From the NCBI RefSeq assembly GCF_009914755.1, contig NC_060933.1: a stretch of DNA of 64,000 bases, one strand, 5' to 3'. The notes beneath the pieces were generated by a model. That model was given only the letters and a program-made list of their open reading frames with translations. It made no database searches and was not told the origin of the DNA. Below, piece after piece: positions 25,850 to 41,932 of this stretch (the first letter of the stretch is position 1; every line of letters starts with the position of its first letter). Both the position numbers and the translations under genes were made by a program. The stretch comes from the human T2T-CHM13v2.0 reference genome, Homo sapiens.

Positions 25850-26418
25850 TACTGTTTCTTTTCTCTCAGTAGCAAACCCACCCTCTTTATTCTCTTTAGA
25901 TTCTCCCATTGAGAAGCATTTCTGTGAGCTCTGGAAGTCAGGTGAAAAGGAGAAGTCATAATCTATGGCAGCAGCTATGGGAAGGTACATTTATTAGAAA
26001 TTAGAGGAACATCAGATATTAGAGGATATGTTAGATTAGATATTATTGATAGATATATTAGATATTATTGATATATTAGATATATTGATAGATTGGATAT
26101 CATTAGCTAGATTAGATATATTTGGCAGATATTAGAGGAACACCAGATTTCATCAGTATGCTTCTGAGATTTATCCAGTTTTGCACTGCAAGCATCTGAT
26201 AATTTTGTGGCAGCTTTTCTGCATTGCTGGTACTTCTAGACTTCCTCAGAGGCTGGGCCTCCCTGACCTTAGCTCACTAGTCCTTCTGAAGCTTGTGTAA
26301 ACTTTTAATTCCCTGTATTAAATTCATTGTTGTTCAGAATACCTACAGTTTTTTGTTTTTTTGTTTTTTTGTTTTTTTGTTTTTTTGGTTTTTTTTCCTG
26401 ACAAACCCTGACAGAAAT
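25850..26418 (+). mobile_element. Old ERVL LTR remnant (LTR16/LTR33-like) containing an AT-rich simple-repeat expansion
   Basis: LTR-type 3' end (ttccctgtattaaatt...cctgacaaaccctgacag); GATAT(A)TT-type repeats at ~26015-26135. Confidence 0.45.
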
Positions 26419-26864: not shown

Positions 26865-26955
26865 GGCTGGTCTCGAACTCCCGACCTCAGGTGATCTGCC
26901 CACCTCGGCCTCCCAAAGTGCTAGGATTACAGGGATGAGCCACCATGCCTGGCCT
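26865..26955 (-). mobile_element. Truncated AluS left-arm fragment at the left edge of the mosaic block
   Basis: Begins abruptly mid-arm (ggctggtctcgaactcc); no right arm, tail or TSD. Confidence 0.88.
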
Positions 26956-27632
26956 AAAATGAAATTTTAATTGGCAGAGAAGGCAGATGGTGAGAATTGT
27001 TGATCCAATAATAACATGAAGTCCATGAAAGCCTGTGGCTGTAAAGAATGTTGAGCTGTAGATTCCATCAGAGATAATAAAGGGGGCCTCGAAATATTCT
27101 GAGATTTGTGGAAGGGTGAAATAGACTCCTAAGAGGATTGTGGTAAGTAGTGCTTGAATTGTTTGTTTTTGGTTACCTTCTGTTAGGCTGTGATGGGCTC
27201 AAGTCATTGAAACTCCTGATGCAAGTAATACGGACGTATTTAGGAGAGGTACTTCTGAAGGGTTCAGGGGAAGAATACCTGTTGGGGGTCAATGTCCTCC
27301 TAATTCTGGGGTCGGTGCTAAACTGGAGTGATAGCATGCCCAGAAAAAACCGGCGAAGAAGGATACTTCTGAGATAATAGGAGCATCCTGTATCAGAGGC
27401 CTTTTTGGACAATTGCTGTGTGGTGGCCTTGGAATGTACTTTCTCGGACAATATCACGTCATCATTGATATATAGTCAGTGTGTTGGTTAGTAGGCCTAA
27501 AGTTAAAAGAGTGGTAGAATTAAAGTGAAATCCTATGGTTAGGCCAGATGTTATTAGGAGAGCCGAGAGAGCTCCTGTTAGTGGTCAAGGGCTAGGTACA
27601 ACTATATGGTAGGCATGTGTCTGGTGGGTCAT
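26956..27632 (-). pseudogene. MT-CO3: NUMT: mitochondrial COX3 pseudogene fragment (start codon to about nt 680)
   Basis: Minus strand begins ATG ACC CAC CAG ACA CAT GCC TAC CAT ATA GT (MTHQTHAYHMV in the mitochondrial code); later a ...[23 protein letters not shown] motif; degenerate and clearly diverged from modern human mtDNA. Confidence 0.93.
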
Positions 27633-27783
27633 TATGTATTATGCGAACAAAGACTAATAGTGTGAAGACATAAGCTTGAATAAGAGTGACAGCGAACTTG
27701 AGAACAGTTAGTAGAATTAGAATAATAGGAAATACTGAAGTTGCAGAGACACTAATAATTGATAATATTAGCACTGCACTGTA
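27632..27783 (-). pseudogene. MT-ATP6: NUMT: mitochondrial ATP6 3' end
   Basis: Translates to ...IILILLTVLKFAVTLIQAYVFTLLV; TAA overlaps the COX3 ATG (TAATG) as in mtDNA gene order. Confidence 0.92.
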
Positions 27784-27806
27784 TTTTAATTCTTTTTCTC
27801 CTGTAG

Positions 27807-27902
<96 letters not shown>

Positions 27903-28893
27903 TAAATTGATTTTGCTACCTGAAGTACTTGTATTTGGCTTCTTGTAGTAACCTGCAGTCTATAGTGCTTTATATGTAGTAGTCCTTTTTTATCTGAAAC
28001 AAAACATTTTGAAGTTCCCAGGAGTAACAGCTTTAGCTCCTGATTTTAAAAAATTTATTCTAGGGGTGATACAGGCATTTTTTAAAATCTCCAATTTAAG
28101 CATTAATGTTTGCCCTTTTTTCCAAGAATGCACACGTGTTAATATTTCAAATGGTTGAACACTTAAAATGAAAAGCAACAGACTCCTGCTTTTTACCCAT
28201 CTGGTTATTTTCTGATTTTAAATCTGTCGCACGTTACCCTCATAATTCTAGATACTGTAGTATGCTTAACTACCATTTGTTAATGGTAGTTGTTGTTGTT
28301 GTACAGACAACACCTGTTGATCCCCACAATATGAATTATGGAGCTTCCACTCACTTATGCCTCTTTCCTCCTTGCTTCCAGTGTCTCATCTATTTTTTAC
28401 TTTTCGTTCTCTTGGCTATCTTTGCTATATTGTATGTATTTTCATTAATTAAGAAATACATTAAGAATACAGAAAGTTATCAGATACAGATATAGATATA
28501 GATATCAGACACCTATATACCTACCACCCAGAATTAATTGGTGTTAACATTTTGCTATTTTTAATTCAAGCTTACTTTTACAGGTAAATACAATATTACA
28601 AATGCATCTTAAGAAATTCCTTCACATCCGTCACTTACTCTTGCCTCTCATACAGATAACCACTGTCTTGAAGTTGGTGATTGTTTTCTTTCTTTGCTGA
28701 TATTTATAATTTTACCATATGTGCCTGTTGCCATAAAAATATTTGGTTTATTTTAAAATGTGATACAAGATATTTTCCTGAGTATTATTGTTCTGATTCT
28801 GATCTGATCAAAGAGGAGCTTCTATTCTTTACTTCTGTAGAACTCTTTAGTCTTATAAAAGTTTTATATATTCTGAAATCAAACCTACCAATC

Positions 28894-29188
28894 TTTTTTT
28901 TTTTTTTGAGACAGAGTCTCACTCTGTCGCCCAGTCTGGAGTGCAGTGGCGCAATCTCGGCTCACTGCAAGCTTCGCCTCCCAGGTTCACGCCATTATCC
29001 TGCCTCAGCCTCCTGAGTAGCTGGGACTACAGGCAAACGCTGCCATGCCCGGCTAACTTTTTGTATTTTTAGTAAAGACGGAGTTTCACCGTGTTAGCCA
29101 GGATGGTCTCGATCTCCTGACTTTGTGATCCGCCCACCTCGGCCTCCCAAAGTGCTGGGATTACAGGCGTGAGCCACCGCACCCGGCC
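28894..29188 (-). mobile_element. AluY element within old L1ME-like sequence
   Basis: Antisense dimer with Y diagnostics; TSD taccaatcttt. Confidence 0.93.
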
Positions 29189-30087
29189 CAAATTTACCAA
29201 TCTTTTATAGTTTGGTCTTTTGAAGTCTTAGGGAATCGTTTCCTACCCTAAAGGTCTAATTTGATTGTTTTCCATATGATGGTCAGTTGTCTCAGCATTA
29301 TTAGTTGAATAATCCAGTATTTACCTACAGCTTGGAAATTTCCCTTCTTTGGTAAGCCAGATTCCCTTCTAAAGGGTCTATTTCTGGCTTTTATTTTTAT
29401 TCATTGGATATATTCATATCTCCATATACCAGAGACTCATTCATGTATACCACAGCTTTATAATAAACGTTGATTAGAGTGTTTTTCTACCTCCGTGTTC
29501 TTCAAAATTGCCTAGACTATTCTTGACCCTTCTTCACTGTGAGTTTAGGTTTAGGTGATCATATTTAACCAAAAAAAATGCATTTGGGTTTTTTATTAGA
29601 AGTGTGTTGAATTTATGGATTAATTTAGGAGGCTTGGTATCTTGCTGATACTTAATCTCACTACCCATTTACATGGTATATATTGCTTGCATACTTGGGT
29701 CTTTTGTTTTCTATAGTAAAGTTGCTGGAAGAGGAGTGGGGGAGGAAAGAGGAGGAGAGGAATGCACACATATGGGTGTAGGAGGCACCCTTCTGAAGGG
29801 AGGCTGGAAGGAGAAAGATGTGGGGCTAGGACGTGTGGGGCATGGGTCAGAGGTCAGAGGCACTGAAACTGCAGCTGAATGAGAGCAGCCTCCTTTTTCA
29901 TTAGGTGGAACCCCCAAAATGGGGGCAAGGTCAGTGGGAAGAGCCAGGGAAGAGTTAGGAATTATGGATATCAAATTTTACTCAATTCTTGGTGTGGGAG
30001 AAGGTGGAGGGACAGGCAAAATGAGGGGCCCAACAGCACGTGGGCCGAGTCAGAGTAGGACGAGGAGCTGGGATCTGTGAAGTGTAG

Positions 30088-30383
<296 letters not shown>

Positions 30384-30398
30384 TGATCTCGATCTCCT

Positions 30399-31441
30399 TT
30401 TTTTTAATTAAAAAGTAAACTTTAATGTCGAAAATGCAAGCTTGAGGAGGGCAGAAAGATCACACACAAGGCTGTCACTTCACACTTGGAAGGTTGCACA
30501 GCAGCCGGGCAGAGACGCTCCTCACTTCCCAGATGGTGAGGGGGCTGGGCAGAGGCGCTCCTCACTTCTCAGACAGTGCAGGGGCTGGGCAGAGGCGCTC
30601 CTCCCTTACAAACGGTGAGGGGGCCGGGCAGAGGTGCTCCTCACTTTCCAGACAGGGGGGCGGCTGGGCAGAAGCGCTCCTCACTTCCCAGATGTGATGG
30701 TGGCCAGGCAGAGGCGCTCCTCACTTCCCAGAGTGTAAGGGGGCTGGGCAGAGGCACTCCTCGCTTTGCAGACTGTGAGGCAGCCGGGCAGAGGCGCTCC
30801 TCACTTCCCAGACAGGGCGGCGGCCTGGCAGAGGCACTCCTCACTGCCCAGACGGGGCAGGACCCAGGCAGAGGTGCTCCTCACTTCCCAGACTGTGAGG
30901 CAGCCGGGCAGAGGCACTCATCACTTCCCAGACAGGGCGGGAGCCGGGCAGGGGCGCTCCTCACTGCCCAGACAGTGCGGTGGCCAGGCAGAGGCGCTCC
31001 TCACTTCCCAGAATGTAAGGGGGCCGGGCAGAGGCACTCTTCGCTTCACAGACAGGACGGTGGCGAGGCAGAGGCGCTCCTTACTTCCCAGACAGGGCAA
31101 TGGCTGGGCAGAGGCGCTCCTCACTTCCCATACCATGAGGTGGCCAGGCAGAGTTGCTCGTCACTTCCCAGATGGGGTGGAGGCCAGGCAGAGGCAGTGC
31201 TCCTCCTCAATTCCCAGATGGTGGGCAGCTGGGCAGAGGTGCTCCTCACTTCCCAGACAGGGCAGTGGCCAGGCAGAGGCGCTCCTCACTTCCCAGACGG
31301 TGGAGCAGCCGGGCAGAGGCGCTCCTCACTTCCCAGATGGTGGGGCGGCTGGGCAGAGGCACTCCTCACTTCTCAGACGGTGGAGCAGCCGGGCAGAGGC
31401 GCTCCTCACTTCCCAGCTGGTGCAGGCAGAGATGTTCCTCA
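30399..31441 (-). mobile_element. SVA2-type retroposon (GC-rich VNTR + short unique 3' region + poly(A))
   Basis: SVA-type VNTR, then the unique tail gtgcaaccttccaagtgtgaagtgacagcc...gacattaaagtttacttttt and poly(A) on the minus strand; no SINE-R or CCCTCT hexamer; ~14-bp imperfect TSD gatctcgatctcct/ggtctcaatctctt. Confidence 0.85.
30500..31430 (-). repeat. VNTR of about 24 units, mostly 40 bp (core ggcagaggcgctcctcacttcccaga on +)
   Basis: gcagag core recurs at ~40-nt spacing from ~30509 to ~31425. Confidence 0.95.
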
Positions 31442-33354
31442 GGTCTCAATCTCTTGACCTCCTGATCCGCCCACCTGAGCCTCCCAAAGTGCTGGATTAC
31501 AGGCGTGGGCCACCACGCCTGCCCTGCCGTCTCTTCTTTCTCCTCATAAGCAGCTCTCTTAGTCTCCTGAATTTTGATGTTCTACTTAACATCCTCATGT
31601 TCTTATGCATGTTGCCCTGCTGGAGGCGTCCTTCTCTTTGGGAAGCCTGACCCACCAACAGTGCCTCAGGAGATAGAAATGGAAGCTTAGCCAGTGGGGG
31701 ACCCTCATCTCTATCCCACCTCAGTTGCAGGGGAGGGGTTGGTTGCAGCTGCAGCAGTGGCCCCGACAGTTTTCTTTTGCAGGACCTGTGGCTGGCAGCT
31801 CTGGGTGGAGAAGACCTACTTGATCCAAGAGCTGCAGGATCCTTGGGCTGCGTGTCCTCCCCCACCATCACCATCAGCTGGGCAGGTGGTCTTTACCCAG
31901 CACCTTCAAGGCCGCCTTCTCTGGCCACAGGGAGCAGCCCGGAACTGGGGCAGGGAGCACCGTTGGAAGTGGGTCAGGCTTCCCAAAGGGAAGGATGCCT
32001 CCAGCAGGGCTGTGTGAACTGGCGACTCCATGGCCCTTGGAGTAGAAACTCACTGCATGCACCTGGGCCTTGTCAGTCTGGTTGTTTTCTGTCAAGCTCT
32101 TGAGGTGGACATTTCCCTCCAAGGGCCTGGGATTGTACAAGGAGGAAGTGAGGTTTCCCTGAGTCTCCAGGGGCCTAGAGGTGGAGGCTGCTTCCCCATT
32201 GCTACAGGGGCCCCTTTTATTGTCCTCCTGCCCCTGGGTCTCTACCTGGTCTTTCACCTCCGTTGCTTCTTTGGGCTCTTTTGCCCTCACCTCCATCTTC
32301 GGGAGCCTGGCTGGGATCACCTGCTCATCTAATGAAGGAAGTCGGAGGTTAAACTTGCCTCTGAGACGAGGGATCCTCACGGGGCTGAGGTGTCCAAACA
32401 TCCTGGAGTTGTGAGCAGACAGCATGGGTTTCTTCCTTGAGGGGGGGCTCCAGACCACAGGAGGCAGGACCCTCTGTGGGGTGCCCGTGTTCCGAGGGAT
32501 AAGACAGCCTCATAGGGGCGCTGTCCCACCTGACTGGAAAAGAAGGCCTAAGATGTCACTGTCAGTTGAAGAGGAGTGGGAAACGGCCCCAGATTCCCGG
32601 GGCAGGCACAGGTGCAGGAGCCGCGGGGTGAGCCCGGCCAGCTGGGAAGGCCTCACGGACAAGACGAGCAGGTTGCCGATGGCATGGCCAGGACCTGCGG
32701 TGGGACCAGGAGCAAAATATGCTTAGTGAGTTGCCCATTTTGAGCAAGTTGTGCACAGATGAAACCAAGGGTCAGAAGTGGAGAGGATACTCCTAAGTCA
32801 CCCACTTCTCTGTGGCCGGGTGCACACTGGGCATCTGGGAGTTTATGACATCACCATGGGGCTGGTGACAGAGCCAGGGTGTGGAGGAGTGCTTAGGAGC
32901 CCAGCGAGGGTGCCTACAAGAGGAGTCAAAGGGCAAAGGGTGAGACCCTTCCACTGGTCCCCCTGGACTCTAGCCTCAGGGACATCCTGCTCCTGGGGGC
33001 AGGTGTGTGGCCTTGGATGGGCCTCCCTGTGGGGCTGTTGGGGGTGCGGGACTGATCTGCCAGAGCCCTTCCGCCTGGCGTCTGGCCCAGGTGCTGGCTG
33101 GCACCCAGTGGCCCTGTCTTGGCCGGCCCTGTCCCACGGGTTACAGGGCCAGAACCTGGAAGCAGAGCGCAGGACCAGCCAGATCCCGCCAGGCTCCCCG
33201 GGGGCCTCTCCAGTGCCTCTGTGCCACCTGGAGCCAGGCCCACCTTCTCCATGGCTGCTGTGGCCTCAAGGGCCACCAGCCTCACTCCGCAGGTTTCCAA
33301 AGAGAGGACGCGGTGCCCTGACCTGACTGGTTGCGCCTCTTACCACGTGCCTCC

Positions 33355-33475
33355 CTGGCAGGCAGGGTCTCCACTTTTTACAAATTTGCCTGAGACCATT
33401 CCTCAGGTCATTCAGGTGGTCATGGCCTAGCCAGGCTTTGAACCCGGGCTGTGCAATTCCACAGCTGGTGCTCTG
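33355..33475. mobile_element. MIR remnant
   Basis: caggtcattcaggtggtcatggcctagccaggctttgaacccgggctgtg. Confidence 0.55.
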
Positions 33476-34089
33476 GCCTGTGTGCCTCATGATCATGGAT
33501 ACAGCATCTATTCTTAATTTTTCCTGTAGTCCTGGGGTACTTAGCACCGTGGCATATCTGTAATAAGCACATGCACACCTCGAAGGAGGTCTTCACTTCA
33601 ACATACAAGTTGACCATGGCATGCTCTGGGCTCCAGTCCTCTACAAAGTTGTAGGGCAGGAACTACCAGTTGTCAGCACAGCACCATCCCACATTGCTCT
33701 TCTAATGGAGCCTTTCACCCCAGATGTTCTTTCTCGTCTGATGGGAAGGATCCAAGTATGTAAATATTATGTTCTAGATCAGCTTTGGTCTGTCCTAAAA
33801 GAAATTTGCCAGTGGATTATTCCATATGGATAAAAGTCAGTTTCTCTGGTCTTCCTGGAATGTGTCTAGAAAGCAAATACATTATTTACAAGTTCATAGT
33901 AGATCAATGTATTGGATTAAAATATGACAAACATAATTTGGTCATTGTGAGAATGCCAGCTCGGTCAACTATTCACCACACATGATGCCCTAAATATAAC
34001 TCTAGGTTTTCTTATGCCCAAGAGAGGGACATACTCTTGGGTGTCTGGACTAGGGAAACATGTATGAAAAACCATTTGGCCACTCTACA

Positions 34090-36697
<2,608 letters not shown>

Positions 36698-36699
36698 GC

Positions 36700-36817
36700 T
36701 AGAGATGGGGTTTCACCGTGTTGGTCAGGCTGGTCTCAAACTCCTGACCTCTGGTGATCTGCCTGCCTTGGCCTCCCAAAGTGCTGGGATCACAGGTGTG
36801 AGCCACCATACCTGACC
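36700..36817 (-). mobile_element. Isolated Alu left-arm fragment without tail
   Basis: Starts at tagagatggggtttcacc directly after L1 sequence. Confidence 0.85.
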
Positions 36818-36904
36818 TACCTTTTTTTTGTTTTGTTTTGTTAAGAAACTTGCTTATGTTGTTCTTTATTTTCTTCTTGACTTTTTTTTCCCCAGGTTTC
36901 CTTA

Positions 36905-37574
<670 letters not shown>

Positions 37575-38989
37575 TATATCCATTAATAGTAGGTGATTGA
37601 GACTGGCTCTCTGAAAACACATCTACACTCACTGTCCCCAGGCCTGGAATAGCTCCCGTCATGCCTTTGTGTGGATTAGGGGAAGGTACTCTTCCTCCAG
37701 CAAGTGCAGCAGCCTGGTGCAGACCTTGGGCTGTGGTGCCGATCCCTGAGTGCCCCTAACAGGACCCCAGCTCATGCAGCAGCCTTGCTCTGCCCTTTCT
37801 TCGGAAGTCTTCTAATGAGATGTGCATGCAGTGCCCCCACTTTTGCCTCTTACAATCACTCAGGAGATGACGGCAGGTGTACTTTCCTGCAGAAATAGAG
37901 AGATTGTAATCTTCTCTATTCTTTACTAATTGGCTAATAAGACAAAATGTCATGAACTCAAGAGGGGCCTTCACATTCCAAAAGAACTATCACACGGCTG
38001 GGCTGTGAACCAGGTTTGACTCCTCTGTTCTCCTTAAGCTGCTGGAAAACTTCGTGGCCATGAAATGCTTTGGTCATCTTTCATAGTGGCCAACTCTTGG
38101 CCATGTGCTTAATGCGAGGAGAACTGGAATTAGGTGGATAATATTTTATGTGAATCAGGAAACTCTTTAGGCATGAAGTTATTATCAAGTCAGCTCTGAA
38201 TATTCTATAAATATTTATTCTCTCAGAGGAAAATATTACTTCAAGACTGCCCAGTTTTTCTTAGATTTTATAGCCTTCTCAGTATTTTCTGGCTACATAT
38301 ATGGGGTTTCTAAAGAGGCTGTTACCTAAGCAATGACCTGTGTGTGTGTATGCACATGTATTAGTCACATTAAACACCCTAGTGGTATTTAATACCCAAT
38401 GGAATTGAAGAACAATGGAACCAATTGCACAATAAACCATCTTATAAGTTAAAATGGTCTCCATCTAATCAGGCCATAAATGTTGTGAAGAGTGTGTAGT
38501 TTGATGTTTCTCCTATATCTCAAGCTTCTAATGTAAATGAAGAGAACTTGGAGATGACAGACAGTGAAAATGACTTGCAGGAAAATCCTGAAGACTGTTA
38601 AGTAACAGGAGAGTTTCATGTTTGACAGTGTCTGGAAATGTTGAATCTGTTTCACTGGCTGACCTTGGCTTTCATGCGTGTTTGTAAGAAGGCTGCCTCA
38701 TTTTTACCCAGAAAAAAATGATTTTACTTTTTGTTTATCTGGGCTAGTTAATCTTTTTCCTCCAAAATATTTATTTAATATTTACTCTGGGCACAGCATT
38801 GCCTTGTGCAGTGTGTAAGGAATTCCTCAGTGGATTTATAACTGAGATGGGTATTTACAACATCATACCCAATATATAAAAATGAAACTTTTGCTCTTAA
38901 ATACATGGACTAATTTTGTAAAAAAAAAAAAAAATTCTTGTGCCTTTTCTTTGTGCAAGGCATGGTGCTAAGCACTTCTCTGCATATCA

Positions 38990-41932
38990 TTTGTTTTTCT
39001 CCAGATTAATTATCCACTCTTTCCTCAATTGCTCTCAGCACAGGATGGTGAATCTTCATAGATTACATTCATCCAGGGTCCCTTGCCTTTTGGCTTCTGA
39101 TATAGTTTGGATATTTCTCCCCTCCAAATCTCATGTTGAAATGTAATCCCCAATGTTGGAGGTGGGGCCTGATGGCAGGTGTTTGGATCATGGGGGTGGA
39201 TCCCTCATGAATGGGTTGGGCCATTTCCTTGGTGATAAGTGAGCTGTCACTCTGAGTTCACAGGAAATATGGTTGCTTAAAAGTGCATGACACCTCGCCT
39301 CCAACCCTCTCTCTCTTGCTCCTGCTTTTGCCATGTGACGTGGCAGCTCCCACTTCACCTTCTGCCATGAGTAAAAGCTTCCTGAGGCCTCCCCAGAAGC
39401 CAAGCAACGTCAGTGCCCTGCTTTTACAGCCTGGAGGACCATGAGCCAATTGAATCTCTTCTCTTTAGAAATTATCCAATCTCAGATATTTCTTTATAGC
39501 AATGCAAGAATGCCCTAATACATAAAATTGGTACTAGGCATGGAGTATTGCTTAAGATACTGGAAAATGTGGAAGCAGCTTTGGAATTGGGTAAAAGGTA
39601 GAAGTTGGAAGAGTTTGGAGGGCTCTGAAGAAGACAGAAAGATGAGATTAAGTTTGGAACTTCTTACAGACTGGTTAAATTGTTGACACCAAAATTCCGC
39701 TAGTGATATGGACAGTGAAGTCCAGGCTGATGAGAACTCAGATGGAAATGAGGAAGTTATTGGGAACTGGAGCAAAGATCAGCATGTTATGTTTTAGCAG
39801 AGAGGTTAGCTGCATTGTGTCCATACACTAGGGATCTGTGGAAGTTTGAACTTCAGAGTGATGATTTAGGCTATCTATCAGAGAAATTTCTAAACAGCAA
39901 AGCATTCAAGATGTGGCCTGGCTGCTTCTAACACCCATGCTCAGATACAGGAGCAAATAAATGACTTAAAGTTGGAATTTATATTTAAAAGGGAAGCAGA
40001 GTGTAAAAGTTTGCAGCCTGGCCATGTGGCAGAGAAAGAGAAAACCTTTCTGGGAGAGTAATTTAAGCAGTCCATGGAGCAACCACCGGCTAGAGATATT
40101 TGCATAACTAAAAGGGAGCCAAGTGCTAATAACCAAGACAATGGGAAAAAGCCTGGAAGGCATTTCAGAGACCTTCCTGGCAGACCCTCCCATTGCAGGC
40201 ACAGAGGTCTAGGAGGGAAAAATGATTTCATGGGCTAGGCCCAGAGCCCAGCTTCCCTGCACAGCCTCAGGACACTGCTCCCCATATCCCTGCTGCTCCA
40301 GCTCCAGCTGTGGCTCAAAGGGCCCCAGGTATAACACGAATGACTGCTTCAGCAACAAAGGGTAAAAGCTGTAAGCATTGGCATCTTTAATGTGATGTTA
40401 AGCCTGTAGGTGCACAGAGTGCAAGAGTGAAAAAGGCTCAGCAACCTCTGCCTAGATTTCAGAGGGTGTATGAGAAGGCTGGAGTGCCCAGGCAGAAGCC
40501 TGCTGCAGGGCTGGAGCCCTCACAGAGAACCTCTACTAGAGCAGTGTGGAGGGAAAATGTCGGGTTAGACCCCCACACAGTGTCCCAGCTGGTGCACTGC
40601 CTAGTGGAGCTGTGAGAAGGGGGCCACTGTCCTCCAGACCCCAGAATAGTAGATCCACTAACAACTTGCACCGTATGCCTGGAAAAGCTGTAGGAACTCA
40701 ATGCCAGCCCAGGAGAACAACCATGGGGGCTGAACCCTGCAGAGCTGCAGGGGCAGAGCTGCCCAAAGCTTTGAGCACCCACACCTCATATTAGTGTGCT
40801 CTGGATGCAGGACATAGAGTCAAAGGAGACTCTTTTGGAGATTTAAGATTTAATGGCTGCCTTGCTGGGTTTTGAACTCACATGGGGCCTGTAGCCCCTT
40901 TGTTTCAGCTGATTTAACTCTTTTGGAATGGGAATTACCCAATGCCTACACCCCCATTGTATCTTAGAAGTAAATAACTTGTTTTTTATTTTATAGGTTC
41001 ATAGATGGAAGGGACTTGCCTTGTCTCAGATAAGACTTTAGACTTTGGGCTTCTGAGTTAATGCTGAAATGAGTTAAAACTTTGGGGACTACTGGGAAGG
41101 CATGATAGTATTTTGCAATGTGAGAAGTCCATGAGATTTGTGGGAGGAAGGTGGGAATGATATAGTTTAGAGATTTGCCCCCACCCAAAACTCATATTGA
41201 AATGTAATCCCCAATGTTGGAGCTGGGGCCTGGTGGGAGGTGTTTGAATCATGGGGCAGGTTCCTCATGAATGGCCTGGGCCATCTCCTTGGTAATAAGT
41301 GAGCTTTCACTCTGAATTCACAGGAGATGTTGTTTAAAAGTGTGTGGCAACAACCCCCCAACTCTTTCTCTCTGTTGTTCCTGTTTTTTCCATTTGACAT
41401 GCCAGTTCCTGCTTCACCATCTGCCGTGAGTAAAAGCTCCCTGAGGTCTTTCCAGAAGCCAAGCGATGTTGTTGCCATGCTTGTATAGTGCACAGAACCA
41501 AAAGCCAATTAAACCTATTTATTTACAACTTATCCAGTCTGAGGCATTTCTTTATAGCAATGCAAGAACACCCTAATATAGCTTCCGTTAAATTTAGCCA
41601 ATGGGAGATGCTGGCATGAGATCTAGGGTGGGAAGAGAATGAAGTTGCAGTAGTTATCCTCCTTGCCACCTTCTTGCTAAATCATCTTAGATGGGTTGCT
41701 TTACTCACAGAGCCACCGTCCTTAGGTTCTTGTAAATGTTCACTGCTTTGCCCCTTAGGACTCAATAATGGCTCCCCATAATTTCTGCTGTTAGAGTATT
41801 GAACTGTCTTCTCTTGGCTAGGGAAAACATAAACCCTGCCCTCAGTTTTGCAAATGGTCTCTTTATTAAATTCAATACAAACTACCTAATTTTAATTTGC
41901 CATCTTTTCCTAGCTAGTCCTGAACTCATACA
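38990..41932 (+). mobile_element. LTR33-like ERVL LTR split by the MST element
   Basis: cccttgccttttggcttc | cgttaaatttagccaatggg is continuous across the MST insertion. Confidence 0.55.
39098..41580 (+). mobile_element. Full-length MST (MSTA/B-like) MaLR: LTR 39098-39522, internal 39523-41157, LTR 41158-41580
   Basis: Two homologous LTRs starting tgatatagttt, an MST-int body and a 5-bp TSD gcttc on both sides. Confidence 0.93.

What the first reader, a model, noticed from the sequence alone, without database searches (positions are those of the whole stretch)
30399..32900. NPAP1-like 5' region + Alu arm + 40-bp VNTR + poly(A): candidate VNTR-composite retrotransposon layout
Seen on the minus strand: GC-rich upstream region, NPAP1-like ORF, 5' Alu segment, ~24 x 40-bp VNTR, SVA2 unique tail with ATTAAA (30421-30426) and a poly(A). 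Established: SVA2 supplied the VNTR core of the SVA, LAVA, PVA and FVA composites, which L1 mobilises, and upstream promoters generate 5' transductions. Inference: a retrogene promoter reading into SVA2 gives a ready-made L1 substrate, which could explain why UPF0607 is multicopy. This copy is not such a retrocopy itself, because Alu and NPAP1-like sequence continue beyond the poly(A).
Basis: partly seen in the sequence, partly recalled or inferred. Interest (0 to 1): 0.75.

Follow-up and report, generated by a model that had tools for sequence, protein, structure and literature searches.

The report
SPTLC1 chimeric RNA spread UPF0607 backwards
This stretch is a DNA duplicate of part of the lipid-synthesis gene SPTLC1, and nine other places in the human genome are intron-less, poly(A)-tailed copies of an RNA that joins SPTLC1 exons 1-3 to the same repeat cassette read backwards, likely pasted by LINE-1, while no such copy of the normal SPTLC1 message was found.

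Summary
The anatomy is real: an SVA2-type VNTR element sits inside an Alu inside NPAP1-like DNA, each with its own target-site duplication. UPF0607 is nonetheless multicopy by retrotransposition, on the opposite strand. Window 26865-37802 is a 10.9-kb DNA duplicate (96-98%) of SPTLC1 intron 2-exon 3-next intron. At the SPTLC1 locus, exon 3 joins an antisense-Alu acceptor (window equivalent 30191-30192), and the RNA runs through SVA2, UPF0607 and ends ~14 nt after ATTAAA (34133). Nine dispersed copies carry spliced SPTLC1 exons 1-3 plus this terminal exon and a poly(A); 9 of 9 are full length (3.3-4.5 kb), 7 of 9 have TSDs above chance, and they form a star tree (~1.1% non-CpG divergence). The normal SPTLC1 3' end has no retrocopy. 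So 'UPF0607 retrogenes' and SPTLC1 pseudogenes are two strands of one insertion. It is a single-source chimeric processed-pseudogene burst, not an SVA-like family; the 9:0 isoform bias is a natural test of what makes an L1 substrate. Not found in the papers searched; key SVA2 papers were not held.

The parts
26865..37802 (+). 10.9-kb DNA duplicate of the SPTLC1 locus (C9:104265648-104276267, opposite strand): end of intron 2, exon 3, start of the next intron; no poly(A) or TSD at its ends
   Evidence: 96-98%; ends mapped
26865..27781 (-). Alu fragment plus mitochondrial insert (annotated MTCO3P40), part of SPTLC1 intron 2
   Evidence: hub annotation
27807..27901 (+). copy of SPTLC1 exon 3 (95 nt) with intact AG acceptor (27805-27806) and GT donor (27902-27903); exons 1-2 absent from the window
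29725..36698 (-). ~7-kb NPAP1-like cassette shared with C9:100.01M (89-92%), lying antisense in the SPTLC1 intron after exon 3
30168..30397 (-). 3' part and A-tail of the host Alu; on the + strand its T-tract and AG (30191-30192) are the 3' splice site used by the copied RNA
30193..34152 (+). homologue of the terminal exon of the retrocopied RNA (source C9:104272956-104269280, 3677 nt)
30398..30503 (-). SVA2-type unique tail, ATTAAA 30426-30421, A8 30405-30398; not the end of any UPF0607 copy
30504..31441 (-). 40-bp VNTR, 22.7 copies by TRF (30504-31416); span 621-1224 bp in other copies, deleted in one
31442..31521 (-). 5' arm of the host Alu, ending in the 5' copy of the SVA2 TSD (31455-31442)
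31497..32509 (-). UPF0607/NPAP1-like reading frame, interrupted by a stop at 31874-31876 in this copy
   Evidence: hub annotation LOC442427
34133..34152 (+). ATTAAA (34133-34138) and cleavage site (~34150-34152; 4 and 8 nt later in two copies) used by the retrocopied RNA, inside an old dispersed repeat read as antisense L1 (family name recalled, not from a call)

Best explanation
The window holds a DNA duplicate of part of SPTLC1, and nine dispersed UPF0607 copies are intron-less, poly(A)-tailed copies of a plus-strand RNA made of SPTLC1 exons 1-3 spliced to an antisense Alu and read through SVA2 and UPF0607 backwards, likely reverse-transcribed and inserted by LINE-1 proteins in trans. Steps: (1) an Alu inserted in an NPAP1-like paralogue and an SVA2 inserted in that Alu (shown: nested TSDs, empty sites); (2) a ~7-kb piece was copied at DNA level into the SPTLC1 intron after exon 3, antisense (shown: shared with C9:100.01M, no retro hallmarks; direction inferred); (3) the reversed Alu A-tail gave a 3' splice site and an ATTAAA 3.7 kb downstream gave a 3' end, making a truncated SPTLC1 isoform with a 122-codon frame (shown as fossils in 9 of 9 copies; present-day expression untested); (4) this RNA was retrocopied full length at least nine times from the one source, probably in the great-ape ancestor (star tree shown; date inferred); (5) the window arose in the same period by DNA duplication of 10.9 kb of the source, lacks the promoter and exons 1-2, and left no copies.
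For: Close copies: 11 loci at 94-100% over the whole 1381-nt query, 20 of 20 candidates scored. Nine share both ends; two (window, C9:104.27M) share flanks. Junction exon 3|Alu identical in 9 of 9. Translation matches human SPT1 1-87, E 3.5e-50; three separate source exons with GT-AG at C9:104.275-104.282M. Poly(A) after ATTAAA in 9 of 9. TSD scores 17, 17, 15, 13, 12, 9, 8 in 7 of 9 against a maximum of 7 in 72 cross-pair controls; TT|A at the insertion point in 5 of those 7 (read). Flanks unrelated between all 36 pairs. Different 5' starts (15-36 nt before ATG) and three cleavage positions argue for separate RNA molecules. Star tree, 0 of 9 inner branches starred.
Against: 2 of 9 copies have no TSD above control (C2 ties at 7, C6:23.7M scores 4). 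No present-day transcript evidence: SPTLC1 had no hit in the held supplements of three intronic-polyadenylation papers. One pair (C13, C6:64M) groups at 87/94, and a few shared non-CpG sites conflict, so a lost intermediate source or ancestral alleles cannot be excluded. No ape genome was available, so order and date rest on divergence alone. L1 involvement is inferred from hallmarks.
Confidence: 0.9

Rival explanations
1. One reading: a retrogene promoter on the minus strand reads through the Alu arm and VNTR to the SVA2 poly(A), and L1 spreads that sense RNA as a VNTR composite.
For: The layout, ATTAAA and short A-run exist; SVA2-tail elements are themselves retrotransposed (6 of 6 fetched have VNTR, tail and A-rich end).
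Against: 9 of 9 dispersed copies continue through the Alu 3' part to spliced SPTLC1 exons; tails and TSDs are on the other strand; the Alu-arm/VNTR junction has 12 genome matches, none new; 6 of 6 unrelated SVA2-tail loci fetched (of 29 listed, 210 candidates) lack the adjoining Alu arm and NPAP1-like DNA.
Confidence: 0.02
2. On why 9 copies versus 0: the Alu/VNTR cargo made this isoform a preferred, full-length L1 substrate, i.e. an incipient VNTR-composite retroelement assembled independently of SVA.
For: 0 retrocopies of the canonical last exon and 3' UTR (1 of 1 match is the gene) and none among 13 matches to exons 1-3 versus 9 of the chimera (0.5^9 = 0.002 if equal chance); 9 of 9 full length with no truncated close copy among 19 and 27 candidates; an older 5'-truncated copy (C8:36.6M) used the same poly(A) site; SVA RNAs exceed pseudogene formation 12-300-fold and an added AluSp raised mobilisation ~25-fold in HeLa-HA cells (PMC3287187, passages).
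Against: The VNTR is antisense in this RNA, unlike SVA; no hexamer; no second-generation source; isoform abundance in the ancestral germ line is unknown and could explain the bias alone.
Confidence: 0.3
3. On why 9 versus 0: plain abundance or localisation. The new acceptor and poly(A) site made the truncated isoform the dominant SPTLC1 RNA in ancestral germ cells for a limited time (or freed it from ER-bound translation), and ordinary processed-pseudogene formation did the rest.
For: Single source and star tree fit an ordinary processed pseudogene (PMC3287187 passage on one source locus per mRNA pseudogene); all copies fall in a narrow divergence band, 0.55-1.73%.
Against: SPTLC1 is a needed enzyme, so full-length mRNA must have persisted (own knowledge); no truncated copies were found, which abundance alone does not predict for 4.3-kb RNAs; the chimera still encodes the N-terminal membrane segment.
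Confidence: 0.5
4. The dispersed copies are DNA-level duplicates of one first retrocopy.
For: All nine have nearly the same ends; DNA duplication acts on this cassette (window, chr10 trio).
Against: Unrelated flanks on both sides, copy-specific TSDs, different 5' starts and cleavage positions.
Confidence: 0.02

Closest known systems
L1-generated processed pseudogenes of alternatively processed or chimeric mRNAs (e.g. the partly processed TMF1 insertion using a non-canonical poly(A) signal, PMC4859970 passage; PIPSL recalled)
   Same: Introns removed, poly(A), TSD, one source locus, RNA ended at a non-canonical intronic site
   Different: Nine full-length copies of the chimeric isoform and none of the normal mRNA; 3.7 of 4.3 kb is antisense NPAP1-like/Alu/SVA2 cargo
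VNTR composite retrotransposons SVA, LAVA, PVA, FVA (PMC4432496, PMC3287187, PMC5174737, passages)
   Same: SVA2-derived 40-bp VNTR, antisense Alu sequence near the 5' end, assembly by splicing, high full-length fraction, VNTR length varies among copies
   Different: VNTR and SVA2 tail are antisense in the mobile RNA; no CCCTCT hexamer; splice is into the Alu upstream rather than out of the VNTR; promoter is SPTLC1's and is not copied; no second-generation source
SVA exon trapping / 5' transduction (MAST2-SVA_F1 recalled; general statement in PMC4859970)
   Same: Host 5' exons spliced into Alu-derived sequence of an intronic VNTR element and co-mobilised
   Different: There the SVA lies in sense and supplies the poly(A); here the element is antisense, the acceptor is in an ordinary Alu and the poly(A) site lies 2.7 kb beyond the VNTR
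UPF0607 / NPAP1 / NPAP1L family of POM121-derived retrogenes (PMC3942032)
   Same: The minus-strand frame is UPF0607-type and intronless
   Different: That paper treats UPF0607 as two groups arising by duplication or retrotransposition of the gene itself; here most human copies are antisense passengers of an SPTLC1 transcript
SPTLC1P1-P5 pseudogene names (names seen in search listing; SPTLC1P4 placed beside THEM4 in PMC5780481)
   Same: Probably the annotated 5' ends of five of these nine insertions (mapping recalled, not from a call)
   Different: Annotated apart from the UPF0607/NPAP1P models on the other strand of the same insertions

Membership tests
VNTR composite retrotransposon (SVA/LAVA/PVA/FVA) | SVA2-derived 39/40-bp VNTR core | tested here: met
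   period 40, 22.7 copies
VNTR composite retrotransposon (SVA/LAVA/PVA/FVA) | 5' (CCCTCT)n plus Alu-like region of antisense Alu fragments ahead of a sense VNTR | tested here: not met
   no hexamer array; the Alu arm is part of one Alu split by the insertion; in the mobile RNA the VNTR is antisense
VNTR composite retrotransposon (SVA/LAVA/PVA/FVA) | copies end at a poly(A) 3' of the VNTR with their own TSDs | tested here: not met
   0 of 9 dispersed copies end at the SVA2 poly(A); 12 junction matches, none new
VNTR composite retrotransposon (SVA/LAVA/PVA/FVA) | multiple source loci / repeated rounds of retrotransposition | tested here: not met
   star tree; no shared flanks or transductions among 36 pairs
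VNTR composite retrotransposon (SVA/LAVA/PVA/FVA) | trans-mobilisation by L1 above pseudogene rate | not testable with these tools
   needs a reporter assay
SVA2 | VNTR fused to a short shared non-SVA tail, poly(A), TSD, dispersed copies | tested here: met
   tail has 210 candidates, 40 scored at 93-100%; 6 of 6 unrelated loci fetched show VNTR + tail + A-rich end; TSD and empty site
SVA2 | match to the Repbase SVA2 consensus | not testable with these tools
   no repeat library held; the name rests on the description in PMC3287187 and PMC4432496
L1 processed pseudogene (the nine dispersed copies) | introns removed at GT-AG junctions | tested here: met
   exons 1, 2, 3 contiguous in 9 of 9, separate in the source; third junction at the Alu acceptor
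L1 processed pseudogene (the nine dispersed copies) | untemplated poly(A) after a poly(A) signal | tested here: met
   9 of 9
L1 processed pseudogene (the nine dispersed copies) | TSD at an L1 endonuclease-like site | tested here: met
   7 of 9 above the cross-pair maximum, 2 not; TT|A in 5 of the 7
Segmental (DNA-level) duplicate (the window copy) | >1 kb, >90% identity, introns kept, no poly(A) or TSD at the ends | tested here: met
   10.9 kb at 96-98%; junctions

The most novel reading that the evidence does not exclude
An independent, aborted birth of a VNTR-composite retroelement in the great-ape ancestor: capture of an antisense Alu-SVA2-Alu cassette as a terminal exon turned an ordinary housekeeping mRNA into a preferred, full-length L1 substrate (9 copies against 0 for the normal mRNA). 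The source acceptor and poly(A) signal are still intact in human SPTLC1, so the RNA may still be made and mobilisable, and 3 copies keep an ATG-initiated 122-codon frame for the SPTLC1 membrane-proximal N-terminus.
Probability: 0.3. Interest if true: 0.78.

Novelty: new variant of a known kind. Interest (0 to 1): 0.58.

Why it matters
Why some mRNAs are retrocopied often and in full while others never are is an open question usually confounded by gene-to-gene differences. Here one promoter and one set of 5' exons give two isoforms with a 9:0 outcome, a within-gene control that can be rebuilt directly in a standard L1 trans-mobilisation assay with Alu and VNTR deletions, and that tests whether VNTR orientation matters. 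It also re-explains the UPF0607 'gene family': most human members are antisense passengers, and the SPTLC1 pseudogenes are the other strand of the same insertions. Nine 95-97% copies of SPTLC1 exons 1-3 and a tenth genomic copy of exon 3 with its splice sites (this window) may confound variant calling in a neuropathy/ALS gene (disease link from own knowledge).

Tried and rejected
Sense-strand copies ending at the SVA2 poly(A): none. Copies ending at the Alu A-tail (first impression): rejected, the apparent end is a splice junction. Window as source: rejected, it lacks exons 1-2. Window as a retrocopy or transduction: rejected, introns kept and no tail or TSD. 5'-truncated close copies: none among 19 and 27 candidates; very short ones inside the old repeat could be missed. 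Shorter isoforms using plus-strand ATTAAA at 30407 or 33916: no such copy among 13 matches. Internal deletions in C8:36.6M and C8:27.3M as spliced introns: no GT-AG seen. Exon 4 in the duplicate: recalled peptide motifs not found (weak test). Subfamily structure: unresolved (C8:36.6M was left out of the tree). Placement of C8:36.6M: 48 versus 43 informative sites, unresolved. Present-day isoform in three intronic-polyadenylation supplements: no SPTLC1 row. Literature: ten searches; the listed papers (30 of 590, 30 of 327, 25 of 81, 25 of 76) had zero SPTLC1 occurrences. Damert 2009, Hancks 2009 and Hancks 2010, the papers most likely to list SVA2 groups, were not held, so prior description there is not excluded. 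Earlier scan findings were not available.

Full report
Observation. The parts are nested insertions, not modules of one element. The VNTR plus tail is flanked by a 14-nt duplication of Alu sequence (13 of 14 identical at C9:100.01M) and 3 of 3 chr10 paralogues show the empty Alu; the Alu has its own 15-nt duplication. The tail belongs to a dispersed family (210 candidates, 40 scored, 93-100%); 6 of the 29 unrelated hits were fetched and all are VNTR + tail + A-rich end without the adjoining Alu arm or NPAP1-like DNA. This fits the published description of SVA2 (PMC3287187 and PMC4432496, passages); no repeat library was available to confirm the name.

Copies. The unique 1381 nt upstream of the Alu match 11 loci end to end at 94-100% (window included; 20 of 20 candidates scored), plus older paralogues. 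Only C9:104.27M shares both flanks at close identity; nine others (C1:151.2M, C2:68.5M, C6:23.7M, C6:64.4M, C8:27.3M, C9:28.2M, C10:31.4M, C13:76.9M, C16:66.1M) lack window 29400-30170 and stop at window ~34152. None ends at the SVA2 poly(A): 9 of 9 continue through the Alu 3' part. The Alu-arm/VNTR junction occurs 12 times in the genome (control 0): window, C9:104.27M, C9:100.01M, C8:36.6M and 8 of the nine (the ninth has lost its VNTR).

What the nine copies are. Read on the window's plus strand, each ends 14-22 nt after ATTAAA (34133-34138) in an untemplated A-rich tail where the window and C9:104.27M continue with genomic sequence. At the other end each carries the same ~275-295 nt joined to the Alu exactly after the AG that follows the Alu's reversed A-tail (window 30191-30192). 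That sequence translates to residues 1-87 of serine palmitoyltransferase 1 (E 3.5e-50) and maps as three GT-AG exons at C9:104281800-882, 104278941-9051 and 104275228-323, just upstream of the C9:104.27M cassette. The copies start 15-36 nt before the ATG and are 3321-4545 nt long. TSD scores are 17, 17, 15, 13, 12, 9 and 8 for 7 of 9 against a maximum of 7 in 72 cross-pair controls; C2 ties at 7 and C6:23.7M has none. The insertion point reads TT|A in 5 of those 7 (by eye). Flanks are unrelated in all 36 pairs. These are the hallmarks of L1-mediated processed pseudogenes (PMC4859970, passages). The spliced frame is 122 codons in the source and stays open in 4 of 9 copies, 3 with ATG.

What the window is. 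Window 26865-37802 matches C9:104265648-104276267 at 96-98%, including intron 2 with its mitochondrial insert, exon 3 (27807-27901, splice sites intact) and the cassette. Its ends show no tail or TSD and exons 1-2 are absent. It is a promoterless DNA duplicate of the source. The cassette itself (29725-36698) is shared with C9:100.01M at 89-92%, an older relative that already has the SVA2; that it was copied from there into SPTLC1 is inferred.

Timing and sources. Over 2.6 kb, the window, the SPTLC1 copy and the nine retrocopies form a star (0 of 9 inner branches starred; one pair at 87/94; C8:36.6M left out). Non-CpG divergence from the majority is 0.55-1.73% (mean of the nine 1.1%) against 5.3% for C9:100.01M; pairwise values are. 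With recalled hominoid rates this suggests roughly 10-15 million years, the great-ape ancestor; no ape genome was available to test it. PMC3942032 (text parts 1-3 of 4 and Table S2 seen; one supplementary file not searchable) lists UPF0607 proteins in human, chimpanzee, gorilla, orangutan and marmoset, and describes two groups by duplication or retrotransposition; the parts read do not mention SPTLC1. No copy carries another's flank, so there is no sign of second-round mobilisation.

The asymmetry. The canonical last exon and 1.3 kb of 3' UTR (identity confirmed) have 1 match, the gene itself, and all nine intron-less matches to exons 1-3 are the chimera (13 matches in all). Nine against none has probability 0.002 under equal chance. 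No truncated close copy was found (19 and 27 candidates, all scored). An older, 5'-truncated copy at C8:36.6M (12% non-CpG divergent) used the same poly(A) site and has an 11-nt TSD. Two explanations remain: the Alu/VNTR cargo favours L1 capture (SVA RNA 12-300-fold over a pseudogene control and ~25-fold gain from an AluSp in HeLa-HA cells; PMC3287187), or the isoform was simply abundant in ancestral germ cells. I put these at about 0.3 and 0.5. Against the first, the VNTR is antisense here. The source still has its acceptor and ATTAAA, but SPTLC1 had no row in the held supplements of three intronic-polyadenylation papers (PMC5928244, PMC11289681, PMC2784480; supplement searches only), so present-day expression is not shown.

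Relation to known things. It works like SVA exon trapping and like VNTR-composite assembly by splicing (PMC5174737, PMC4859970, passages) but fails membership: no hexamer, antisense VNTR, foreign promoter, single source. It is a member of the processed-pseudogene class, with unusual composite content and copy number. SPTLC1P1, P2, P4 and P5 appear as names in 11 papers (listing); SPTLC1P4 is placed beside THEM4 (PMC5780481, passages), consistent with the C1 copy (location of THEM4 recalled). UPF0607 appears in 3 papers. Ten searches showed no paper linking the two, but only top-ranked listings were seen, PMC2584115 passages were not relevant, and Damert 2009, Hancks 2009 and Hancks 2010 were not held; Ianc 2014 is recalled only.

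Verdict. Observation confirmed; interpretation partly supported, with the mechanism on the opposite strand and at another locus. New variant of a known kind; interest 0.58.

Noticed in passing
window 26865-27781; G000:C6:32528611-32529538: The Alu fragment plus mitochondrial insert of SPTLC1 intron 2 matches a chr6 locus at 93% across the Alu junction, suggesting the chr6 (MHC-region, recalled) insert and this one are one event duplicated with its Alu.
   Followed up: no
L014/L022/L023 (G000:C8:36596827-36599391): Older plus-strand retrocopy, 5'-truncated inside the VNTR, same poly(A) site, TSD AAGAAAGAGTG, 660-nt internal deletion, later Alu insertion; 12% divergent from both the SPTLC1 group and C9:100.01M, source unresolved.
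   Followed up: partly
L006:1395-1445 (G000:C8:27.29M): This retrocopy has lost the whole VNTR; about 30 nt of one repeat unit remain at the join in inverted orientation, as from a template switch or later repair.
   Followed up: no
L016, L018, L019 (C10:88.26M, 80.73M, 51.54M): Three near-identical chr10 copies of the NPAP1-like/Alu sequence without SVA2 (empty site), cut at window 31956 and continuing with C9:100.01M sequence beyond the cassette end.
   Followed up: partly
L012 (G000:C9:100.01M): An extra antisense Alu sits inside the SVA2 tail with a 14-nt TSD, and a ~60-bp tandem array at window-equivalent 32660-32730 is longer than in the window.
   Followed up: no
nine retrocopies, minus strand: The UPF0607 frame is stop-free for 384-393 codons in 6 of 9 copies (340 in the SPTLC1 copy), whereas the window copy has a stop at 31874; likely just youth, selection not tested.
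   Followed up: partly
window 27805-27903 and 30191-30192: The duplicated exon 3 and Alu acceptor keep intact splice sites on the same strand as the annotated lncRNA LOC112268046, which ends 22 kb upstream; read-through splicing is possible but not shown.
   Followed up: no
window 39100-41580: A 2.5-kb repeat with many 73-79% matches genome-wide, LTR-element-like by recall; outside the duplicate.
   Followed up: no
window 26032-26122: AT-rich (TAGATATAT)n array 740 nt left of the duplicate's junction.
   Followed up: no
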